From positions 52,402 to 116,401 of the forward strand of contig JAGYNB010000002.1 in the NCBI GenBank assembly GCA_018400015.1: 64,000 bases of DNA, read 5' to 3'. The translations under genes and the position numbers were made by a program. The stretch is from Candidatus Omnitrophota bacterium. Lineage in GTDB: Bacteria > Omnitrophota > Gorgyraeia > Gygaellales > Gygaellaceae. This document shows, in pieces, positions 6,241 to 57,793 of this stretch (the stretch's first letter is position 1; the number at the start of each line of letters is the position of its first letter). The notes under the pieces are model-generated. The model saw only the letters and a list, made by a program, of their open reading frames with translations. It was not told the DNA's origin and did no database searches.

Positions 6241-7397
6241 GCACAGAATTGTTATCAGTATTAGAACACATTGAAAGAGAAAAAGGAATAAGTAAGGACA
6301 AGCTTATTGAGGCTGTTGAGCTGGCTTTGGTCAGTGCGGTAAAAAAGATGGTTGATGTAAAACCGGGCATAGATGTAAAAGTAACACTAGATAGAGAAAC
6401 AGGTAAGATTAAAGCTTATGTAGGCAAAAAGGAGTTTAAGTCTGTTGAGCTCGGGAGGATCGCTGCGCAAACCGCAAAACAGGTCATAATTCAGCGTATT
6501 AGAGAGGCTGAAAAAGAACTGGTTTTCAATGAATTTCAGAATAAAGTGGGTCAGATTGCAAGCGGAACAGTATATCGGTTTGAGAAAGATAATATTATAG
6601 TCGACCTTTTGGGTAAAACAGAAGCATTTTTACCAAAAAGAGAACAGTGTTTTAACGAGGCTTTTAAACAGGGTGAGCGTATTAGCGCATATATACTAGA
6701 TGTAAAACAGAATGCAAAGGGGCCGTTGATAATCCTTTCTCGTTCGCATCCTAACTTTGTAAGAAAATTATTTGAATTGGAGGTTCCCGAAATTTACGAA
6801 GGCATAGTGGAAATTAAGTCGATTTCTCGTCAGCCAGGAGAAAGAACAAAGATTGCCGTATGGTCTAAGGACGAAAAGGTTGATTCTTTAGGTTCCTGCG
6901 TGGGTATGCGCGGTACAAGAGTAAAGAATATCGTAAATGAATTGCACGGTGAAAAGATTGATATTGTTCGTTATAAAGACGATATTAAAGAATATATAAT
7001 TGAAGCATTATCGCCTGCTAAGATTTCAGAAATCAAGCTTGATAAAGATAATAAAAAAGCAGAGATTATAGTTGCCGATGATCAGCTTTCTTTGGCAATA
7101 GGTAAACACGGTCAGAATGTTAGGCTCGCTTCGAAATTGGTCGGATGGGAGCTTGATATTAGAACCAGAGAAACTGCCGGTATGGACAAAAAAGATATAA
7201 CCCGTTCCAAAGAAAAGGATTTGAGCAATCTTGAAGGTATTGGTGAAAAGCTGCAGGGTGTGCTTATTGAAGGTGGTTTTGATTCTGTTGAGAAGATCTC
7301 CAATGCCGATATAAAGGATATCACTTCTTTAAAAGGTATTGGTAAGGCAAAAGGTGAGAAGATTATCAAGGGCGCCAAGAAGTTAATGAAAGGTTAG
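6237..7397 (+). CDS. nusA: transcription termination/antitermination factor NusA
   Basis: N-terminal NusA domain, S1 and KH domains (GMRGTRVKNI); rimP-nusA-infB synteny. Confidence 0.9.
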   Translation: MSTELLSVLEHIEREKGISKDKLIEAVELALVSAVKKMVDVKPGIDVKVTLDRETGKIKAYVGKKEFKSVELGRIAAQTAKQVIIQRIREAEKELVFNEFQNKVGQIASGTVYRFEKDNIIVDLLGKTEAFLPKREQCFNEAFKQGERISAYILDVKQNAKGPLIILSRSHPNFVRKLFELEVPEIYEGIVEIKSISRQPGERTKIAVWSKDEKVDSLGSCVGMRGTRVKNIVNELHGEKIDIVRYKDDIKEYIIEALSPAKISEIKLDKDNKKAEIIVADDQLSLAIGKHGQNVRLASKLVGWELDIRTRETAGMDKKDITRSKEKDLSNLEGIGEKLQGVLIEGGFDSVEKISNADIKDITSLKGIGKAKGEKIIKGAKKLMKG

Positions 7398-30446: not shown

Positions 30447-31037
30447 ATGGTTATTGGCGTTACCGGAGGGTTTGCATGCGGCAAGAGCACTGTAAGTAAG
30501 ATGTTTCGTAATTTGGGTGCGAAGCTTATCGATGCAGACAGAATTGCACACAACGTTTTACAAACGCCTATTGTAAAGAAACATTTAGTCAGGCGTTTTA
30601 GAAAAGATATTTTGGATCTTAAGAATGATATCGATAGAAAAAAATTATCGAAGATTGTTTTCTCAAAACGCAGCGACCTGAATTTTATTAACAGAGTTAT
30701 TCATCCAGAAGTAGTTAAAAGGATAAAATCGCTTATAAAGTTATCGGGTGAGAAAATATGCGTTTTGGACATACCACTGTTGTTTGAAGCAAAATTAGCA
30801 TATTTAGTTGATTATATTGTTGTAGTTAAATGCTTAAAGTGCAGTCAGATTAAAAGAGCAGAAAATAACAATTTTGATATAGAGCGAGTTAAGAAAATAA
30901 TCCAGGCTCAGATGCCTTTAAAATATAAAGTGAAACAGGCTGATTATGTAGTAGATAATAGCTATTCGTTAAAAAAGACCAATATGGAGGTTAAAAGAAT
31001 ATGGCAGGACATGGTTCAAAAACAGAACAAGAAGTAA
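30447..31037 (+). CDS. coaE: dephospho-CoA kinase
   Basis: P-loop [13 protein letters not shown]. Confidence 0.85.
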
Positions 31038-31039
31038 AG

Positions 31040-32287
31040 ATGGATATCAGTAATCTTAAAGACAAAAAAGTAACTGATCTTAATAAAATCGCCAGGGATT
31101 TGCATGTTAATGGTGCTAGCGTTTTGAAAAAGCAGGATTTGATCTTTAAAATATTGCAGGCCCAGGCGGAAAAAGCCGGACTCATGTTTGGAGAAGGGAC
31201 TCTAGAGATCTTACCCGAAGGTTTTGGGTTCTTAAGATCGGCAAATTATAATTATTTGCCTTCTCCGGACGATATATATATTTCACCATCTCAGATACGC
31301 AAGTTCGATTTAAGAACTGGTGATACTGTAAGTGGTCAGATCAGGCCACCTAAAGAAGGAGAAAAGTATTTTGCGCTTTTAAAAGTTGAAGCGGTTAATT
31401 TTGAAAATCCTGAGAATTCGAAAGAGAAAGTATTGTTTGATAATCTTACACCGCTTTATCCGCAGGAAAAGTTCGTTTTAGAGACCAAGCCGGAAGAGGT
31501 GTCTATGCGGGTTATGAGTCTTTTGACTCCTTTAGGCAAGGGACAGCGTGCTTTGATTGTTGCACCGCCTTATAGCGGAAAGACTGTATTGTTACAAAAA
31601 ATCGGCAATGCGATAATGAGTAATCAACCTGATGCCACATTGATGGTGCTTTTAATCGACGAGCGTCCTGAAGAGGTTACGGATATGCAGCGCAATGTCA
31701 AAGGTGAAGTTATAAGTTCCACCTTTGATGAGGCACCTGAGCGTCATGTGCAGGTAGCGGAAATCGTTTTAGAAAAGGCAAAAAGGCTGATTGAACACAA
31801 GCGCGATGTTGTAATTCTACTTGATAGTATTACCCGTTTAGCGCGTGCCTATAACTCTGTAATGCCCCATAGCGGTAAGATTTTATCAGGCGGCATTGAT
31901 TCCAACGCATTGCAAAAACCAAAGAGGTTTTTTGGTGCAGCACGCGCTTTGGAAGAAGGAGGTTCTCTTACTATAATTGCCACGGCTTTAGTTGATACCG
32001 GAAGCCGCATGGACGATGTTATCTTTGAAGAGTTCAAAGGTACAGGCAATATGGAACTGCAGCTTGATAGAAACCTATTCCAGCGCAGAATATATCCGGC
32101 AATTGACATCAAGCGTTCCAATACACGACATGAGGAACTGCTTCTTAAGGAAGATGAACTTACTAAAATCTGGATACTGCGTAAGGTTTTAAATGATTTA
32201 AATTCCGTAGAGGCTATGGAGTTATTGATACAAAAGCTTGCTAAGACAAAGAATAATAAGGATTTTTTAAACAGCATGAATCAGTAA
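31040..32287 (+). CDS. rho: transcription termination factor Rho
   Basis: Rho N-domain, [20 protein letters not shown]-binding motif, Walker A PPYSGKT; start chosen at MDISNLK after the coaE stop. Confidence 0.9.
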
Positions 32288-32301
32288 AAAAGGAAAATGT
32301 T

Positions 32302-33513
32302 ATGAGAAAAAAAGTTGTTATTTTCTTTGTTTTTATATTTCTTGCTGTTTTTTCCTTTGCCCAAGAAGTAGAGGAAATCCGTATTGTTACCTATTATCCA
32401 GCGCCATACGGAAGTTATACCGAGCTTGCGGCAAGCAGGATGAAGATTGGTCCTACTTTTTCCCAAAGCGGCACAAGCGTTGGTAATGGTAATTTGATTG
32501 TGGAAAATAATGTCGCAATCGGAACTGCTACTCCAATATCTGGTGTAGCAGGTTCAGATAAGATATTAACTATTGCCGGAACCAACCCTACAATAAGATT
32601 TAATGATTTAGATGTAGGTGAAAACGATATGGAAATTCACGTGCAAAACGGGGAAATGGGTTTTTATAATCTGAGCACACTTATTATGATGTTAAAAAAC
32701 AATAATCTTGGAATTGGAACTTCTAACCCAACAGAAAGACTTCATGTTGCAGGTAATATTTTAACAACCGGTGATATTGATATTCGTGGGTCAGATATTA
32801 ATTATGGTGCGAATTCAGAGCTTCGTTTATTTGCTAATTCACCTTCTGGAACCAATCGCCGTCTTTATATCTGTGGTTATGATAGCAGTTCATCATCTGT
32901 TAAGTGCGCAAATATGTGGGTGAATGGTTCTGGGGAATTTCACCTTAATGGAAGCACTAATGATGCTTTTAATATAAATGCTCAAGGGGGTCCGCTGCTT
33001 CTTTATTCGGGAACTGGAAGTCAAATGATTTTTCATTCTACGAATTATTATCAATGGAGAAATGGCAATACCAATGCTGAGATTATGCGTTTAGACGCTT
33101 CATCTGGCAACCTCGGCGTTGGCGATACCACTCCTACAGAAGCTAAAATAGTTGCCAGAGGCGGTACGGTTGCAGGTGAAGGCGCTTATAATAATTTATC
33201 ATCTCATTCTAGTTTAAAAGACAGGTTTAAGGATATCAATGTATTAGATAAGATAAGCTCGCTTAGGATAAAAGAATGGCAGTATAAGGATGATACCGCA
33301 GAAAGGATCAATGATTACGCGAGACATCTGTATCCTTTTGCCGATGATTTTTATAAAATGTTTAGTATTGGAAAAGATGACCGCTCCATAAACGCTTTGG
33401 ATGTTGCCGGTGTTGCCTTAAAAGGTGTGCAAGAGTTAAATAAAAAAGTTGAAGATTTAGTTGTAGAAAATAAACTGTTAAAAGAGAAAATAAGTCAGTT
33501 GGAATCAAATTAA
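32302..33513 (+). CDS. secreted tail-fibre-domain protein with C-terminal endosialidase-chaperone (peptidase S74-like) domain and coiled coil
   Basis: Signal peptide; repeats NLGIGTSNPTERLHVAGNI and NLGVGDTTPTEAKIV; C-terminal SLKDRFKDIN...WQYKDD...SINALDVAGVALKGVQEL resembles the S74 intramolecular-chaperone domain. Confidence 0.6.
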   Translation: MRKKVVIFFVFIFLAVFSFAQEVEEIRIVTYYPAPYGSYTELAASRMKIGPTFSQSGTSVGNGNLIVENNVAIGTATPISGVAGSDKILTIAGTNPTIRFNDLDVGENDMEIHVQNGEMGFYNLSTLIMMLKNNNLGIGTSNPTERLHVAGNILTTGDIDIRGSDINYGANSELRLFANSPSGTNRRLYICGYDSSSSSVKCANMWVNGSGEFHLNGSTNDAFNINAQGGPLLLYSGTGSQMIFHSTNYYQWRNGNTNAEIMRLDASSGNLGVGDTTPTEAKIVARGGTVAGEGAYNNLSSHSSLKDRFKDINVLDKISSLRIKEWQYKDDTAERINDYARHLYPFADDFYKMFSIGKDDRSINALDVAGVALKGVQELNKKVEDLVVENKLLKEKISQLESN

Positions 33514-33546: not shown

Positions 33547-33750
33547 ATGAAAAAAGAGATCCACCCAAAATACAAGGATTGTACGATTATTTGTGCTTGT
33601 GGAGAGGTGATTCATACGCGTTCCACAAAAGACAATATCCGCGTGGATATATGTTCTAAGTGTCATCCGTTCTTTACGGGAAAGCAGAAATTCATTGATT
33701 CTGCCGGACGCGTTGAAAAGTTCAGAAAAAAATACAATAAGAACAAGTAA
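33547..33750 (+). CDS. rpmE: 50S ribosomal protein L31
   Basis: MKKEIHPKY start and CxxG..CSKCHPF zinc motif. Confidence 0.9.
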
Positions 33751-55487: not shown

Positions 55488-56336
55488 GTGAAAGAGGCAA
55501 GATTTTATAAGGCGTTAGATGGGGATAAGGTTCAGTGTGAGCTTTGTCCCCATTTTTGTTTAATAGAGCCTGATAAAATCGGGATCTGTAAGGTAAGAAA
55601 AAATATTAAAGGCAGGCTCTACTCGCTTAATTATGCAAAAATAAGTTCCCTCGCGTTAGACCCAATAGAAAAAAAACCTCTTTACCATTTTCATTCAGGA
55701 GAATATATTCTTTCAGTTGGCACATCCGGGTGTAATTTGAAATGTTTGTTTTGCCAGAACTGGAGCATATCACAAGAAACACCAGATTTAAAGCAAATTT
55801 CAAGCGAATTCTTGGTTCAGGAGGCCAAATCGAATGATTCTTTTGGTATCGCTTATACTTATAATGAGCCTTTTATCTGGTATGAGTTTGTGTTTGATAC
55901 GGCCAGACTCGCTAAGGAAAACGGTTTAAGAAATGTATTGGTTACAAATGGTTTTATAAATCCAAAGCCGCTTAAAGATATGTTGCAATTTATCGATGCG
56001 ATGAATATAGATTTAAAATCAATCGGTAATAATTTTTATAAAGATTATTGTAAAGCAAGCCTAAAACCAGTATTAGAAACGATAAAAACATCTTCTCGAT
56101 ATTGTCATGTGGAATTGACCAATCTTGTGATATCCGGTCTTAACGATAAAGAGGAGAATTTTATTCAGTTGAGAGATTGGATTTATGATAATCTTGGACC
56201 GGATGCGATTCTTCATATCTCTAGGTATTTTCCATGTTATAAGATGAATATAATACCCACCCCAATAGATACGCTTAAAAAAGCACAAGAGATAATTGGA
56301 AAAAAATTAAGATATGTATATTTGGGAAATGTTTAG
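55488..56336 (+). CDS. AmmeMemoRadiSam-system-type radical SAM enzyme (PFL-activase-like)
   Basis: N-terminal CELCPHFC and SGCNLKCLFCQNW radical-SAM CxxxCxxC cluster. Confidence 0.75.
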   Translation: MKEARFYKALDGDKVQCELCPHFCLIEPDKIGICKVRKNIKGRLYSLNYAKISSLALDPIEKKPLYHFHSGEYILSVGTSGCNLKCLFCQNWSISQETPDLKQISSEFLVQEAKSNDSFGIAYTYNEPFIWYEFVFDTARLAKENGLRNVLVTNGFINPKPLKDMLQFIDAMNIDLKSIGNNFYKDYCKASLKPVLETIKTSSRYCHVELTNLVISGLNDKEENFIQLRDWIYDNLGPDAILHISRYFPCYKMNIIPTPIDTLKKAQEIIGKKLRYVYLGNV

Positions 56337-57793
56337 TCTGTAAGGGCAGAAATATTGCTTTTTAGGTTAGCTTTTTCTCTTACCGAATTTAAAAGCTTCA
56401 AGTTGACGTTATTTTCTTCTTTTTCAAGTTCTGATTTTAGAAATTCCTCTTTTTTTTCAGCAAATTTATTTATATCCACCGGATAAAGTTTATCAAGCGA
56501 GATTATATAAAATTTGTTTTCAATCCTTAACGGAGGGCTTATTTCTTTATCTTTTAGTATAAAAGCGATATCGGAAAGCTCGTTGCTGTATCCTAATTTT
56601 GGGAACATCTTTGTTTGTCTGGTGAAGGTGTCAGTTGTGTAAGGTTTCTTTTTTAAAGATTTTGCCAATTGCTCGAACGTAATATTTGGGTTTTCTTTTT
56701 GTTTCTTTATCATTGCATCGTATAGGGAATTTATTTTCTCTAAAGCCAGTTTTGCTTTTTGTTCATTTATGATTTTGGTTATGAGCATATCTTTTGCTTT
56801 CATAAAGTCAATAGTATAGTCGGATTGTTTTTCTAAAACTTTTAGCATATAGTAACCGTTATTTATTTCCATAGGATTAGAGATTTTTCCAACCTCCATA
56901 AATGTAGAAATCGCAATTATTTGGTTTTCTGGATTATCGTTTAAAAGTAATTGATTATCAGCGATTTTTTCTCCCGTGGTTTTAAATACAAGGGAGTTAG
57001 ATTTGGCAAATTCTTCTAAATCAGTATCTTCATCGATGTTTTTTGCCAAGGAATCAAGTTTTTGTTTGAGGATTTCTTTTTCTTCTTTTGTCAATTGCTG
57101 CTTGTATGGTGAGCCTATGTAGGCAGCATTTATCATAACTTTATTTTGGAAATCGTTGATATTTTTTTCGTAGTAGTCTTTTAATTCCTCAATAGAGGGA
57201 TTTTTTATTTGGAAATCATCGCAATCTACGAATATGTAATCAATAGATACCTTTTCATATTGGTCTTTGTAACGAGAAAGAAGATCTTGGTCGGTAATTT
57301 TAATTTCAGATGTATTTTGGGAATAGAGCTTTTCAATGGTAAGCGCATCGCGAATTTCCTCTTCGAATTGTCGTTTTGATATATTAAATGTTGTTTGCAA
57401 TATTTGTTGGTAAAGGTATTTATCAAATACACCGTTTTTTTTGAAAAACGGCATTGAGGTTATTGTGTTTATTACTTCTTTATCGCTTACTTTTATTCTT
57501 CTTTTTCTCGCCTCGTTTAAAAGCAATAATCTGTCCCAGGACAGTTTATTTATGGTAAAAGGGTTTGGTTTTTGATTTATGCCTTTTAATGCGAATATAT
57601 GTTCTACCGCAAGTTTGCTTTTTAGGAATTTCTCTATAGATATTTTTTTGCCGAACATTTCTCCGGCATGTTCGCTTGACGATCTATTCTGAAGAGCGAA
57701 ATTCGCACCCCAGAATATAAAGGAAGGAACGATTAAAGCGGTTAAGACCCAAAATATTCCTTTTATGTGTTTTTTGCTTAATTTGCCGAACAT
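56333..57793 (-). CDS. PpiD/SurA-like periplasmic chaperone (N-terminal TM anchor)
   Basis: MFGKLSKKHIKGIFWVLTALIV anchor typical of PpiD and a SurA_N-like domain; no clear parvulin motif. Confidence 0.6.
   Translation of the reverse strand: MFGKLSKKHIKGIFWVLTALIVPSFIFWGANFALQNRSSSEHAGEMFGKKISIEKFLKSKLAVEHIFALKGINQKPNPFTINKLSWDRLLLLNEARKRRIKVSDKEVINTITSMPFFKKNGVFDKYLYQQILQTTFNISKRQFEEEIRDALTIEKLYSQNTSEIKITDQDLLSRYKDQYEKVSIDYIFVDCDDFQIKNPSIEELKDYYEKNINDFQNKVMINAAYIGSPYKQQLTKEEKEILKQKLDSLAKNIDEDTDLEEFAKSNSLVFKTTGEKIADNQLLLNDNPENQIIAISTFMEVGKISNPMEINNGYYMLKVLEKQSDYTIDFMKAKDMLITKIINEQKAKLALEKINSLYDAMIKKQKENPNITFEQLAKSLKKKPYTTDTFTRQTKMFPKLGYSNELSDIAFILKDKEISPPLRIENKFYIISLDKLYPVDINKFAEKKEEFLKSELEKEENNVNLKLLNSVREKANLKSNISALTD

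What the first reader, a model, noticed from the sequence alone, without database searches (positions are those of the whole stretch)
32302..33513. Secreted tail-fibre-like protein with S74 chaperone domain inserted into the rho-rpmE-prfA-prmC-murA housekeeping cluster
The protein has a signal peptide and repeated LGIGTxxPTExLHVxGN-type beta-helix and fibre motifs. Its C-terminal autoproteolytic intramolecular-chaperone domain (peptidase S74-like) precedes a short coiled coil. Such modules are typical of phage tail fibres and endosialidases, yet this gene has no phage neighbours and is translationally embedded between rho and rpmE. It may be a domesticated adhesin or surface fibre, and possibly a self-cleaving one.
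Basis: partly seen in the sequence, partly recalled or inferred. Interest (0 to 1): 0.5.

Follow-up and report, generated by a model that had tools for sequence, protein, structure and literature searches.

The report
Secreted self-cleaving surface fibre gene
This gene, lodged between two core housekeeping genes of an uncultured Omnitrophota bacterium, most likely encodes a secreted three-chain surface fibre resembling the prey-recognition fibres of the predator Bdellovibrio, and belongs to a very large, shuffled gene family in this phylum.

Summary
ORF 32302-33513 (+) encodes a 403-aa protein made of a Sec-type signal peptide, a conserved N-terminal motif, three fibre loop motifs and a C-terminal S74 chaperone domain. 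The Ser301/Lys306 pair is invariant in homologues. The "coiled coil" is the last helix of the chaperone domain, not a separate module.

It is not a prophage remnant. About 20 kb on each side is housekeeping, and phage genomes match only the chaperone domain. The nearest solved relatives are Bdellovibrio MAT ("mosaic adhesive trimer") fibres.

rho and rpmE are directly adjacent in all 17 other Omnitrophota-like loci. Only this window and one close relative (L005) carry a fibre gene there. The neighbours are 65-96% identical between the two, the fibre 29%.

The gene is a recombinant. Its upstream DNA resembles L005, a ~75-nt core is shared by three loci, the next ~270 nt resemble a fibre at another locus, and the rest matches neither.

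The N-terminal module defines a large family (1,535 clusters at E<=1e-10; every named member is Omnitrophota) with varied tips.

Verdict: a new member of a known kind. One Omnitrophica MAT was already listed in 2024. Self-cleavage, trimer formation and the binding target are inferred, not shown.

The parts
31001..32287 (+). rho (transcription termination factor): upstream boundary of the insertion slot
   Evidence: Pfam Rho_N, Rho_RNA_bind and ATP-synt_ab. 96% identical to the L005 Rho.
32290..32295 (+). Ribosome-binding site AAGGAA, about 7 nt before the ATG, in the 14-nt rho-fibre gap
   Evidence: Read directly from the sequence. No + strand terminator-like site in the gap.
32302..33513 (+). 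Whole fibre gene (403 aa plus stop codon)
32302..32361 (+). Sec-type signal peptide (residues 1-20; predicted cut SFA|QE)
   Evidence: n-region MRKK, hydrophobic core, small residues at -3 and -1. The equivalent cut site lies just before the conserved motif in all 13 aligned relatives. By inspection only.
32362..32451 (+). Conserved N-terminal module of the mature protein (QEVEEIRIVTYYPAPYGSYTEL...), the proposed cell-proximal anchor and also the DNA-level recombination junction
   Evidence: T30, Y31, Y32, P33, P35, G37 and Y39 are invariant. The profile finds 1,535 cluster representatives at E<=1e-10. A ~75-nt core is near-identical in the window, L005 and L001.
32512..32535 (+). Fibre capping-loop motif 1 (VAIGTATP, residues 71-78)
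   Evidence: Aligns to Bd2133 loops.
32707..32730 (+). Fibre capping-loop motif 2 (LGIGTSNP, residues 136-143), which coincides with the second recombination breakpoint
   Evidence: Similarity to L001 ends here.
32851..33081 (+). Unique distal region (residues 184-260) with two Cys (191, 202): candidate specificity-determining tip
   Evidence: No close homologue in any search. Predicted beta strands at 186-216.
33112..33135 (+). Fibre capping-loop motif 3 (LGVGDTTP, residues 271-278), just before the cleavage site
33202..33219 (+). Predicted autoproteolytic site S301-H-S-S-L-K306 (Ser nucleophile, Lys base)
   Evidence: S301 and K306 are the only invariant C-terminal columns in 15 homologues. 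The spacing matches the SDxxxK motif described in PMC10769870.
33202..33510 (+). C-terminal intramolecular chaperone / peptidase S74 domain (residues 301-403), including the terminal helix 365-402
33547..33750 (+). rpmE (ribosomal protein L31): downstream boundary of the slot
   Evidence: Pfam Ribosomal_L31. 96% identical to the L005 protein.

Best explanation
The gene encodes a short member of the bacterial MAT-type (mosaic adhesive trimer) fibre proteins, made by an Omnitrophota bacterium. Proposed mechanism, step by step. (1) It is probably co-transcribed with rho, rpmE and prfA and translated from its own ribosome-binding site (inferred). (2) The Sec system exports it and signal peptidase cuts after SFA20, so the conserved QEVEEIRIVTYYPAPYGSY motif becomes the mature N-terminus (inferred from sequence). 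(3) The C-terminal S74 intramolecular chaperone brings three chains together and templates a short intertwined beta-helical shaft punctuated by three 'xGIGTxxP' capping loops (inferred from homology to solved S74 and MAT structures). (4) The Ser301/Lys306 pair then cuts the chain at Ser301. This releases the ~103-residue chaperone and exposes the distal tip (residues ~184-300) as the binding surface (inferred; the residues are present). (5) The conserved N-terminal module holds the fibre on the cell envelope through an unknown partner, and the tip binds a surface structure on another cell. Given the proposed predatory or parasitic lifestyle of Omnitrophota, that cell is most likely a host or prey (inferred by analogy with Bdellovibrio). 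At the genome level, the gene is one copy of a very large Omnitrophota family in which a constant 5' module is joined to interchangeable shafts and tips. Exchange happens at the conserved motif sequences. That explains why the rho-rpmE slot holds fibres only 29% identical in two genomes whose neighbouring genes are 65-96% identical.
Against: The Pfam score of the protein alone is marginal (24.7 against 22 bits). The residue after the nucleophile is His, not the canonical Asp (SHSSLK rather than SDxxxK), so cleavage competence is unproven. Both AF2 monomer models are poor (pLDDT 60 and 66; pTM ~0.3), and structural matches have low Z and TM scores. No trimer could be modelled. At 403 aa the protein is far shorter than Bdellovibrio MATs (~1,000 aa). 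Homology of its N-module to the ~130-aa MAT N-domain was not tested. How the fibre would cross the outer membrane, what anchors it and what it binds are all unknown. Co-transcription rests only on short gaps and the absence of terminator-like sites. The lifestyle of this particular organism is unknown. The genome also carries Wood-Ljungdahl and tryptophan biosynthesis genes, so it is not obviously host-dependent.
Confidence: 0.62

Rival explanations
1. It is a surface fibre with the same architecture and maturation, but it is used for something other than host or prey recognition, such as attachment to particles or biofilm matrix, cell-cell aggregation, or a variable coat that decoys or blocks phages.
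For: S74 'tail fiber domain-containing' proteins occur in many non-predatory bacteria; hits include Reichenbachiella, Pyrinomonadaceae and Planctomycetes. PMC10769870 says MAT-like proteins occur in strains 'predatory and otherwise'. The window genome encodes autotrophic-type metabolism. Hypervariability fits phage or antigenic pressure as well as host-range diversification.
Against: The only experimentally characterised bacterial relatives are prey-handling fibres. Tips seen in the family (C1q, H-lectin, YadA head, dockerin) are typical cell- or glycan-binding modules. Omnitrophota are argued to be largely host-associated. None of this excludes the rival.
Confidence: 0.22
2. It is a remnant of a prophage or tailocin: a stranded phage tail-fibre gene with no present cellular role.
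For: PHROG tail-fibre and virion-protein hits at E=7e-9 to 1e-6. Phage proteins share the chaperone domain.
Against: No phage, integrase or transposase gene lies within about 20 kb, nor in L005 or L001. No viral contig encodes a relative. Phage similarity is limited to residues 288-401 at 39% identity or less. The ORF is intact, has a signal peptide that phage fibres lack, and keeps its catalytic residues. The N-module family has over 1,500 clusters in Omnitrophota. GC content (37%) matches the genome (36%).
Confidence: 0.03
3. It is a trimeric fibre whose S74-like domain acts only as a folding and trimerisation module and is never cleaved, because the SDxxxK motif has degenerated to SHSSLK. 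The C-terminal helix bundle would then stay on the mature protein.
For: His replaces the canonical Asp after the nucleophile. In this subfamily that position varies (H, Y, S, D). The Pfam score is low.
Against: Ser and Lys themselves are the only invariant residues of the domain across 15 divergent homologues, which points to selection on catalysis. The Ser-to-Lys spacing is canonical.
Confidence: 0.12

Closest known systems
Bdellovibrio bacteriovorus MAT (mosaic adhesive trimer) fibre superfamily, S74 subgroup, e.g. Bd3182 (Caulton et al. 2024, PMC10769870)
   Same: Both have a signal peptide, a conserved module right after it, a beta-helical shaft with the xGxGxxxPxxxL capping loops, and a C-terminal S74 chaperone with a Ser-x4-Lys site. 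Both families mix S74 and non-S74 tips among paralogues. Bd2133 and Bd2439 are the only PDB sequence hits and the top fold hits. One Omnitrophica protein is already listed as a MAT in Table S3.
   Different: It is 403 aa rather than ~1,000 aa, with only three loops. The conserved N-module is centred on a ~20-residue TYYPAPYGxY motif, and its homology to the ~130-aa Bdellovibrio N-domain is untested. The site reads SH, not SD. The family is far larger (over 1,500 clusters) and includes members of 90-160 aa. The copy studied sits inside the rho-rpmE operon. No experimental data exist.
Phage tail fibres and tailspikes with a C-terminal intramolecular chaperone (peptidase S74): K1F endosialidase (3GW6), T5 L-shaped tail fibre pb1 (4UW8, 8HQZ), phage S16 long tail fibre (6F45), phi29 neck appendage (3GUD)
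   Same: The C-terminal domain is homologous (profile E down to 3e-14), with the Ser-Lys pair and terminal helix. The overall logic is the same: fibre body, then a chaperone released after trimerisation.
   Different: This gene has no phage context. It has a Sec signal peptide and a bacterial N-terminal module in place of a baseplate- or tail-attachment domain. The body has no detectable phage homologue.
Myelin regulatory factor (MyRF) ICA domain (7DC3)
   Different: MyRF is a eukaryotic membrane-bound transcription factor. The relationship is at domain level only.
Trimeric autotransporter adhesins (YadA/UspA1 type)
   Same: Both are trimeric, modular, mosaic surface adhesins. A few N-module family members carry YadA_head or UspA1 repeats (P0010 and P0028).
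   Different: This protein has no C-terminal membrane-anchor beta-barrel. Trimerisation is assigned to the S74 chaperone, and the polarity is reversed (anchor presumed N-terminal).

Membership tests
Peptidase S74 / intramolecular chaperone auto-processing domain (Pfam PF13884) | Match to the family HMM above the curated threshold | tested here: met
   24.7 bits against a cut-off of 22, E=3e-5, residues 305-349. The family profile hits solved S74 domains at E=3e-14 to 1e-6.
Peptidase S74 / intramolecular chaperone auto-processing domain (Pfam PF13884) | Catalytic Ser and Lys five residues apart (S-x4-K) | tested here: met
   S301 and K306 are invariant in 15 homologues.
Peptidase S74 / intramolecular chaperone auto-processing domain (Pfam PF13884) | Canonical Asp after the nucleophile (SDxxxK, as quoted in PMC10769870) | tested here: not met
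   The sequence is SHSSLK. This position varies (H, Y, S, D) in the closest subfamily. Its importance for catalysis is not established here.
Peptidase S74 / intramolecular chaperone auto-processing domain (Pfam PF13884) | C-terminal position after a beta-helical body, ending in a long helix | tested here: met
   The domain is residues 301-403 of 403. Helix 365-402 appears in both models. Alignments to 6F45 and 7DC3 run through the helix.
Peptidase S74 / intramolecular chaperone auto-processing domain (Pfam PF13884) | Autoproteolytic release of the chaperone after trimerisation | not testable with these tools
   Needs protein expression with S301A and K306A controls.
MAT (mosaic adhesive trimer) fibre superfamily (PMC10769870) | N-terminal signal peptide | tested here: met
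   By inspection: MRKK, a hydrophobic core and SFA|QE, with the cut site conserved across relatives. No dedicated predictor was available.
MAT (mosaic adhesive trimer) fibre superfamily (PMC10769870) | Conserved beta-rich ~130-aa domain right after the signal peptide, shared by all paralogues | tested here: inconclusive
   A conserved module does follow the signal peptide and is shared by thousands of proteins. However, it is modelled at low confidence (pLDDT 55-68). Homology to the Bdellovibrio N-domain could not be tested: no Bdellovibrio full-length sequence was available and the AFDB library was unavailable.
MAT (mosaic adhesive trimer) fibre superfamily (PMC10769870) | Shaft with capping-loop motif V-G-G/N-pi-x-x-P-x-x-x-L, homologous to solved MAT shafts | tested here: met
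MAT (mosaic adhesive trimer) fibre superfamily (PMC10769870) | Intertwined trimer along the whole length | not testable with these tools
   Only monomer prediction was possible, and those models have pTM ~0.3.
MAT (mosaic adhesive trimer) fibre superfamily (PMC10769870) | Paralogues share the N-terminus but carry diverse S74 and non-S74 tips | tested here: met
   39 of 143 members have S74. Others have YadA_head, T4_gp36, Peptidase_G2, C1q, H_lectin, ApeC or dockerin, or no Pfam domain.
MAT (mosaic adhesive trimer) fibre superfamily (PMC10769870) | Cell-surface location and binding of prey surface molecules | not testable with these tools
   Experimental only.
Prophage- or tailocin-encoded tail fibre | Neighbouring phage structural, assembly or integration genes, or presence on viral contigs | tested here: not met
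   Housekeeping genes only, for about 20 kb on each side and in L005 and L001. No relative in IMG/VR. GenBank phages match only the chaperone domain.

The most novel reading that the evidence does not exclude
Omnitrophota as a phylum carry their own large MAT-like fibre system. Thousands of secreted proteins share a phylum-specific N-terminal anchor module (signal peptide, then E-E-I-T-L-T-T-Y-Y-P-A-P-Y-G-x-Y at the mature N-terminus) that docks onto one unknown envelope structure. Shafts and tips (S74 and many non-S74, from ~50-aa mini-tips to 600-aa fibres) are exchanged by recombination at the conserved core and loop sequences. Copies are seeded as single genes into constitutively expressed housekeeping operons such as rho-rpmE. 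This would be the host or prey recognition repertoire of these nanobacteria, with cassette-like diversification comparable to phage receptor-binding-protein shuffling.
Probability: 0.4. Interest if true: 0.65.

Novelty: new member of a known kind. Interest (0 to 1): 0.45.

Why it matters
Omnitrophota are widespread, uncultured, mostly ultra-small bacteria thought to live as predators or parasites. How they recognise partners is unknown; published work focuses on Tad and type IV pili and on giant proteins. No paper in the searchable library links Omnitrophota with S74 fibres, apart from one table row in the MAT paper.

This gene gives a concrete, small and tractable candidate for a recognition fibre. 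Through its N-terminal module it also gives a simple sequence handle for listing the whole fibre repertoire of the phylum.

The mosaic pattern at a fixed chromosomal slot is a clear example of receptor-binding-protein-style shuffling in a cellular genome. It could be used to infer host range or strain-level diversification from metagenomes.

Tried and rejected
- **Prophage remnant:** rejected on context and on the phage and viral searches.
- **Insertion footprint at the rho-rpmE slot:** no flanking direct or inverted repeats in the window or L005; everything found was 28 nt or shorter at about 70-75% identity, i.e. noise. A 142-nt repeat exists only at the L001 locus.
- **Paralogues in the window:** none found by tblastn or by motif scan of all six frames.
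- **Population-level variation among very close relatives:** the JGI metagenome scan returned Rho at 83% identity at best, so no further occupants of the slot were found.
- **Origin of the window:** exact look-ups of P0001 (the window protein) and P0006 found no contig on record.
- **Short-only hits:** these were a length artefact of the indexed search with an 81-aa query. The exhaustive search gives lengths of 90-614 aa.
- **Weak hits dismissed:** NCBIfam T9SS_sortase_N (E=0.033) lies on the signal peptide, and Pfam bZIP_1 (E=0.09) lies on the terminal helix. Both were treated as composition noise.
- **PF26696:** listed for a few short relatives, but the local Pfam copy gave no hit for it.
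- **AFDB fold search:** intended to compare the N-module with Bdellovibrio MAT N-domains, but the library was unavailable.
- **Trimer modelling:** not possible with the tool.

Full report
**1. What is in the sequence.**
- ORF 32302-33513 (+) encodes 403 aa.
- It begins 14 nt after the rho stop codon, behind an AAGGAA ribosome-binding site, and ends 33 nt before rpmE.
- No terminator-like site lies on the + strand in either gap.
- The gene order is polA-glgA-coaE-rho-X-rpmE-prfA-prmC-murA-trpGDCF.
- About 20 kb on either side is housekeeping or central metabolism: formate-THF ligase, FolD, MTHFR, ACS/CODH, trpBA, argS and recJ. There is no phage, integrase or transposase gene.
- GC content of the gene (37%) matches the window (36%).

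**2. Anatomy of the protein.**
- *Residues 1-20* look like a Sec signal peptide (MRKK, hydrophobic core, SFA|QE; no Cys). This is by inspection only.
- *The mature N-terminus* would be QEVEEIRIVTYYPAPYGSYTEL. In 13 relatives the predicted cut site always falls just before this motif, and T30, Y31, Y32, P33, P35, G37 and Y39 are invariant.
- *Three loop motifs* of the type N-[VL]-[GA]-[IV]-G-[TD]-x-x-P sit at residues 71, 136 and 271. Only 15 of 20,000 shuffles contain even one.
- *Residues 184-260* (two Cys) have no close homologue anywhere.
- *Residues 301-403* are a peptidase S74 / intramolecular chaperone domain:
  - Pfam gives 24.7 bits against a cut-off of 22.
  - S301 and K306 are the only invariant C-terminal columns in 15 homologues.
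  - A profile of the family's C-terminal domains hits solved S74 domains: 6F45 (3e-14), 8JOV, MyRF 7DC3 (1.6e-11), T5 tail fibre 8HQZ (1.8e-9) and phi29 3GUD.
  - The residue after the nucleophile is His rather than the canonical Asp.

**3. Closest known structures.**
- By sequence, the only PDB hits for the whole protein are the Bdellovibrio fibres Bd2133 (8OND, E=2.5e-5, aligning the loop regions) and Bd2439 (8OL4).
- Two AF2 monomer models are weak (pLDDT 60 and 66), as expected for a chain that should fold as an intertwined trimer.
- Foldseek against viral models gives 83 hits at E<=1e-3, most of those with a name being S74 or IMC tail-fibre proteins at 13-20% identity.
- These Bdellovibrio proteins are the MAT superfamily of Caulton et al. 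2024. A MAT has a signal peptide, a conserved N-domain, a trimeric beta-helix with V-G-G/N-pi-x-x-P-x-x-x-L capping loops, and either an S74 (SDxxxK) tip or another tip. MATs sit on the predator surface, and one binds prey glycans.

**4. It is not a phage remnant.**
- GenBank phages match only residues 288-401, at 39% identity or less.
- IMG/VR contains no relative.
- The syntenic homologue (L005) and the closest homologue (L001) both lie among housekeeping genes.

**5. The insertion is real and lineage-specific.**
- Rho's nearest relatives are Omnitrophota MAGs, at 85% identity or less among species representatives.
- In 11 Omnitrophota-like genome loci (L006-L008, L010-L015, L024 and one more of that set) and 6 metagenome loci (L089-L094), rho and rpmE are 13-272 nt apart. 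The same adjacency is seen in several other phyla.
- Only the window and L005 (Rho 96% identical) carry a fibre gene there.
- Unrelated insertions occur at the same junction elsewhere, for example an M23/LysM peptidase gene in L058.

**6. The slot's content is mosaic.**
- Between the window and L005, the neighbours are 65-96% identical in protein, while the fibre is 29%.
- DNA homology (77-78%) runs from polA into the first ~150 nt of the fibre gene, stops near 32450 and resumes just after the stop codon.
- A three-way alignment and a sliding identity profile show the following:

| Region (relative to ATG) | Window vs L005 | Window vs L001 |
|---|---|---|
| Upstream | 73-83% | 37-50% (background) |
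| nt 30-90, core encoding AQEVEEIRIVTYYPAPYGSYTE | 80-87% | 77-88% |
| nt 150-360 | 37-62% | 67-88% |
| Beyond ~nt 390 (second LGIGT loop) | background | background |

- L001 carries P0002, a fibre at a different locus in a Gygaella-type genome.
- The C-terminal third is closest (49-50% protein identity) to yet other proteins, P0003 and P0004.
- So the gene is a patchwork whose junctions coincide with the conserved motifs.

**7. A large Omnitrophota family.**
- A profile of the N-terminal module finds 806 indexed proteins. Every named one is from Omnitrophota.
- An exhaustive search of 1.84 billion cluster representatives finds 6,903 at E<=1e-3 and 1,535 at E<=1e-10. The module sits at the N-terminus, and lengths are mostly 90-614 aa. 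The weaker tail may include proteins that match only the generic loop.
- The named longer members are also all Omnitrophota, several annotated "tail fiber domain-containing protein".
- Of 143 top members, 39 end in S74. Others carry YadA_head, T4 gp36, Peptidase_G2-IMC, C1q, H-lectin, ApeC or dockerin domains. Most have no Pfam domain, and many of those have Cys-rich ends.
- Short members of 120-155 aa consist of the module, one loop and a mini-tip, several ending ...NGIITxxI.
- Another member is likewise a lone gene inside a housekeeping block, thrS-infC-rpmI-rplT-trkA-X-...-pheST, in a complete 1.55-Mb genome.
- A constant N-module with swappable S74 and non-S74 tips matches the layout of the MAT family.

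**8. Mechanism and what is inferred.**
- *Shown here:* the domain composition, the conserved residues, homology to S74 and MAT structures, the lineage-specific insertion, the mosaic structure, and the family's size and taxonomic range.
- *Inferred:* Sec export, trimerisation templated by the chaperone, self-cleavage at S301, anchoring through the N-module, passage across the outer membrane, binding of a host or prey surface, and co-transcription with rho and rpmE.
- The host or prey reading rests on analogy with Bdellovibrio and on the proposed lifestyle of Omnitrophota.
- A general adhesion role or a phage-decoy role is not excluded.

**9. Novelty.**
- NCBI already labels relatives "tail fiber domain-containing protein".
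- The MAT paper's Table S3 lists one Omnitrophica S74-tipped MAT. The gene is therefore a new member of a known kind.
- I could not find the following described in the searchable literature: the phylum-specific N-terminal motif, the size and tip diversity of the family it defines, the very short members, the motif-guided mosaicism, and the seeding of single copies into core operons. Pfam and NCBIfam have no match to the motif.
- Whether the N-module is homologous to the Bdellovibrio MAT N-domain is the key untested point.

**10. Verdict.** Interest is moderate at 0.45: the gene itself is ordinary for its class, but it opens a testable route to how Omnitrophota recognise other cells.

Noticed in passing
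L001:5808-5949 and L001:7296-7437: The closest homologue's gene (P0002, L001:6001-7245) is bracketed by a 142-nt direct repeat at 93% identity. The repeat is the 3' end of the upstream 120-aa membrane-protein gene, duplicated as a 47-aa ORF downstream, with a 39-nt inverted copy at 7269-7307. It looks like the footprint of a single-gene cassette insertion. No equivalent repeat exists at the rho-rpmE slot.
   Followed up: partly
L087:10001-12019 (CP070837.1, complete 1.55-Mb Omnitrophota genome): A 135-aa N-module protein (P0050) is followed 25 nt later by a 528-aa FGE-sulfatase-domain protein. 'FGE' is listed as a MAT tip domain in Bdellovibrio sp. ArHS (PMC10769870 Table S3). This may be a split or two-part fibre.
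   Followed up: no
Proteins P0035, P0038, P0137, P0134, P0052: Many very short (120-155 aa) Omnitrophota proteins consist of the signal peptide, the TYYPAPYG module, one GNVGIGT loop and a small tip that often ends ...(V/T)NGIITxxI. They could be mini-fibres, caps or adaptor subunits. A few relatives carry Pfam PF26696, for which the local Pfam copy gave no hit.
   Followed up: partly
L058:6265-7194; L057:6248-7464; L113: The rho-rpmE junction holds unrelated insertions in other phyla: an M23/LysM peptidase-like gene in an FCPU426 MAG (L058), and gaps of 1.2-1.6 kb in a Desulfacinum MAG (L057) and in metagenome locus L113. The junction may tolerate insertions repeatedly.
   Followed up: partly
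window:1-64000: Almost every ORF of 120 aa or more across the 64 kb is on the + strand. The only long minus-strand ORF not nested inside a longer + strand ORF is 56333-57793. Cumulative GC skew rises steadily across the profiled region (26-40 kb). This extreme co-orientation and tight packing help explain why an inserted gene looks 'embedded' in an operon.
   Followed up: no
window:17911-25419: There is a Wood-Ljungdahl-type gene block: formate-THF ligase, FTCD_C cyclodeaminase, FolD, MTHFR with its C-terminal partner, a pyridine nucleotide-disulphide oxidoreductase, and the ACS/CODH beta subunit. It lies just upstream of polA. This indicates acetogen-like carbon metabolism in this Omnitrophota genome.
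   Followed up: no
L086:587-1057 and L086:2524-2991: Two N-module genes (P0068, P0093) lie 1.5 kb apart on one contig. They are separated by small ORFs, including a RelB-like antitoxin, sit next to an AbiEii/DUF2204 gene, and lie upstream of gatCAB. So some family members occur in small variable islets rather than as singletons.
   Followed up: no
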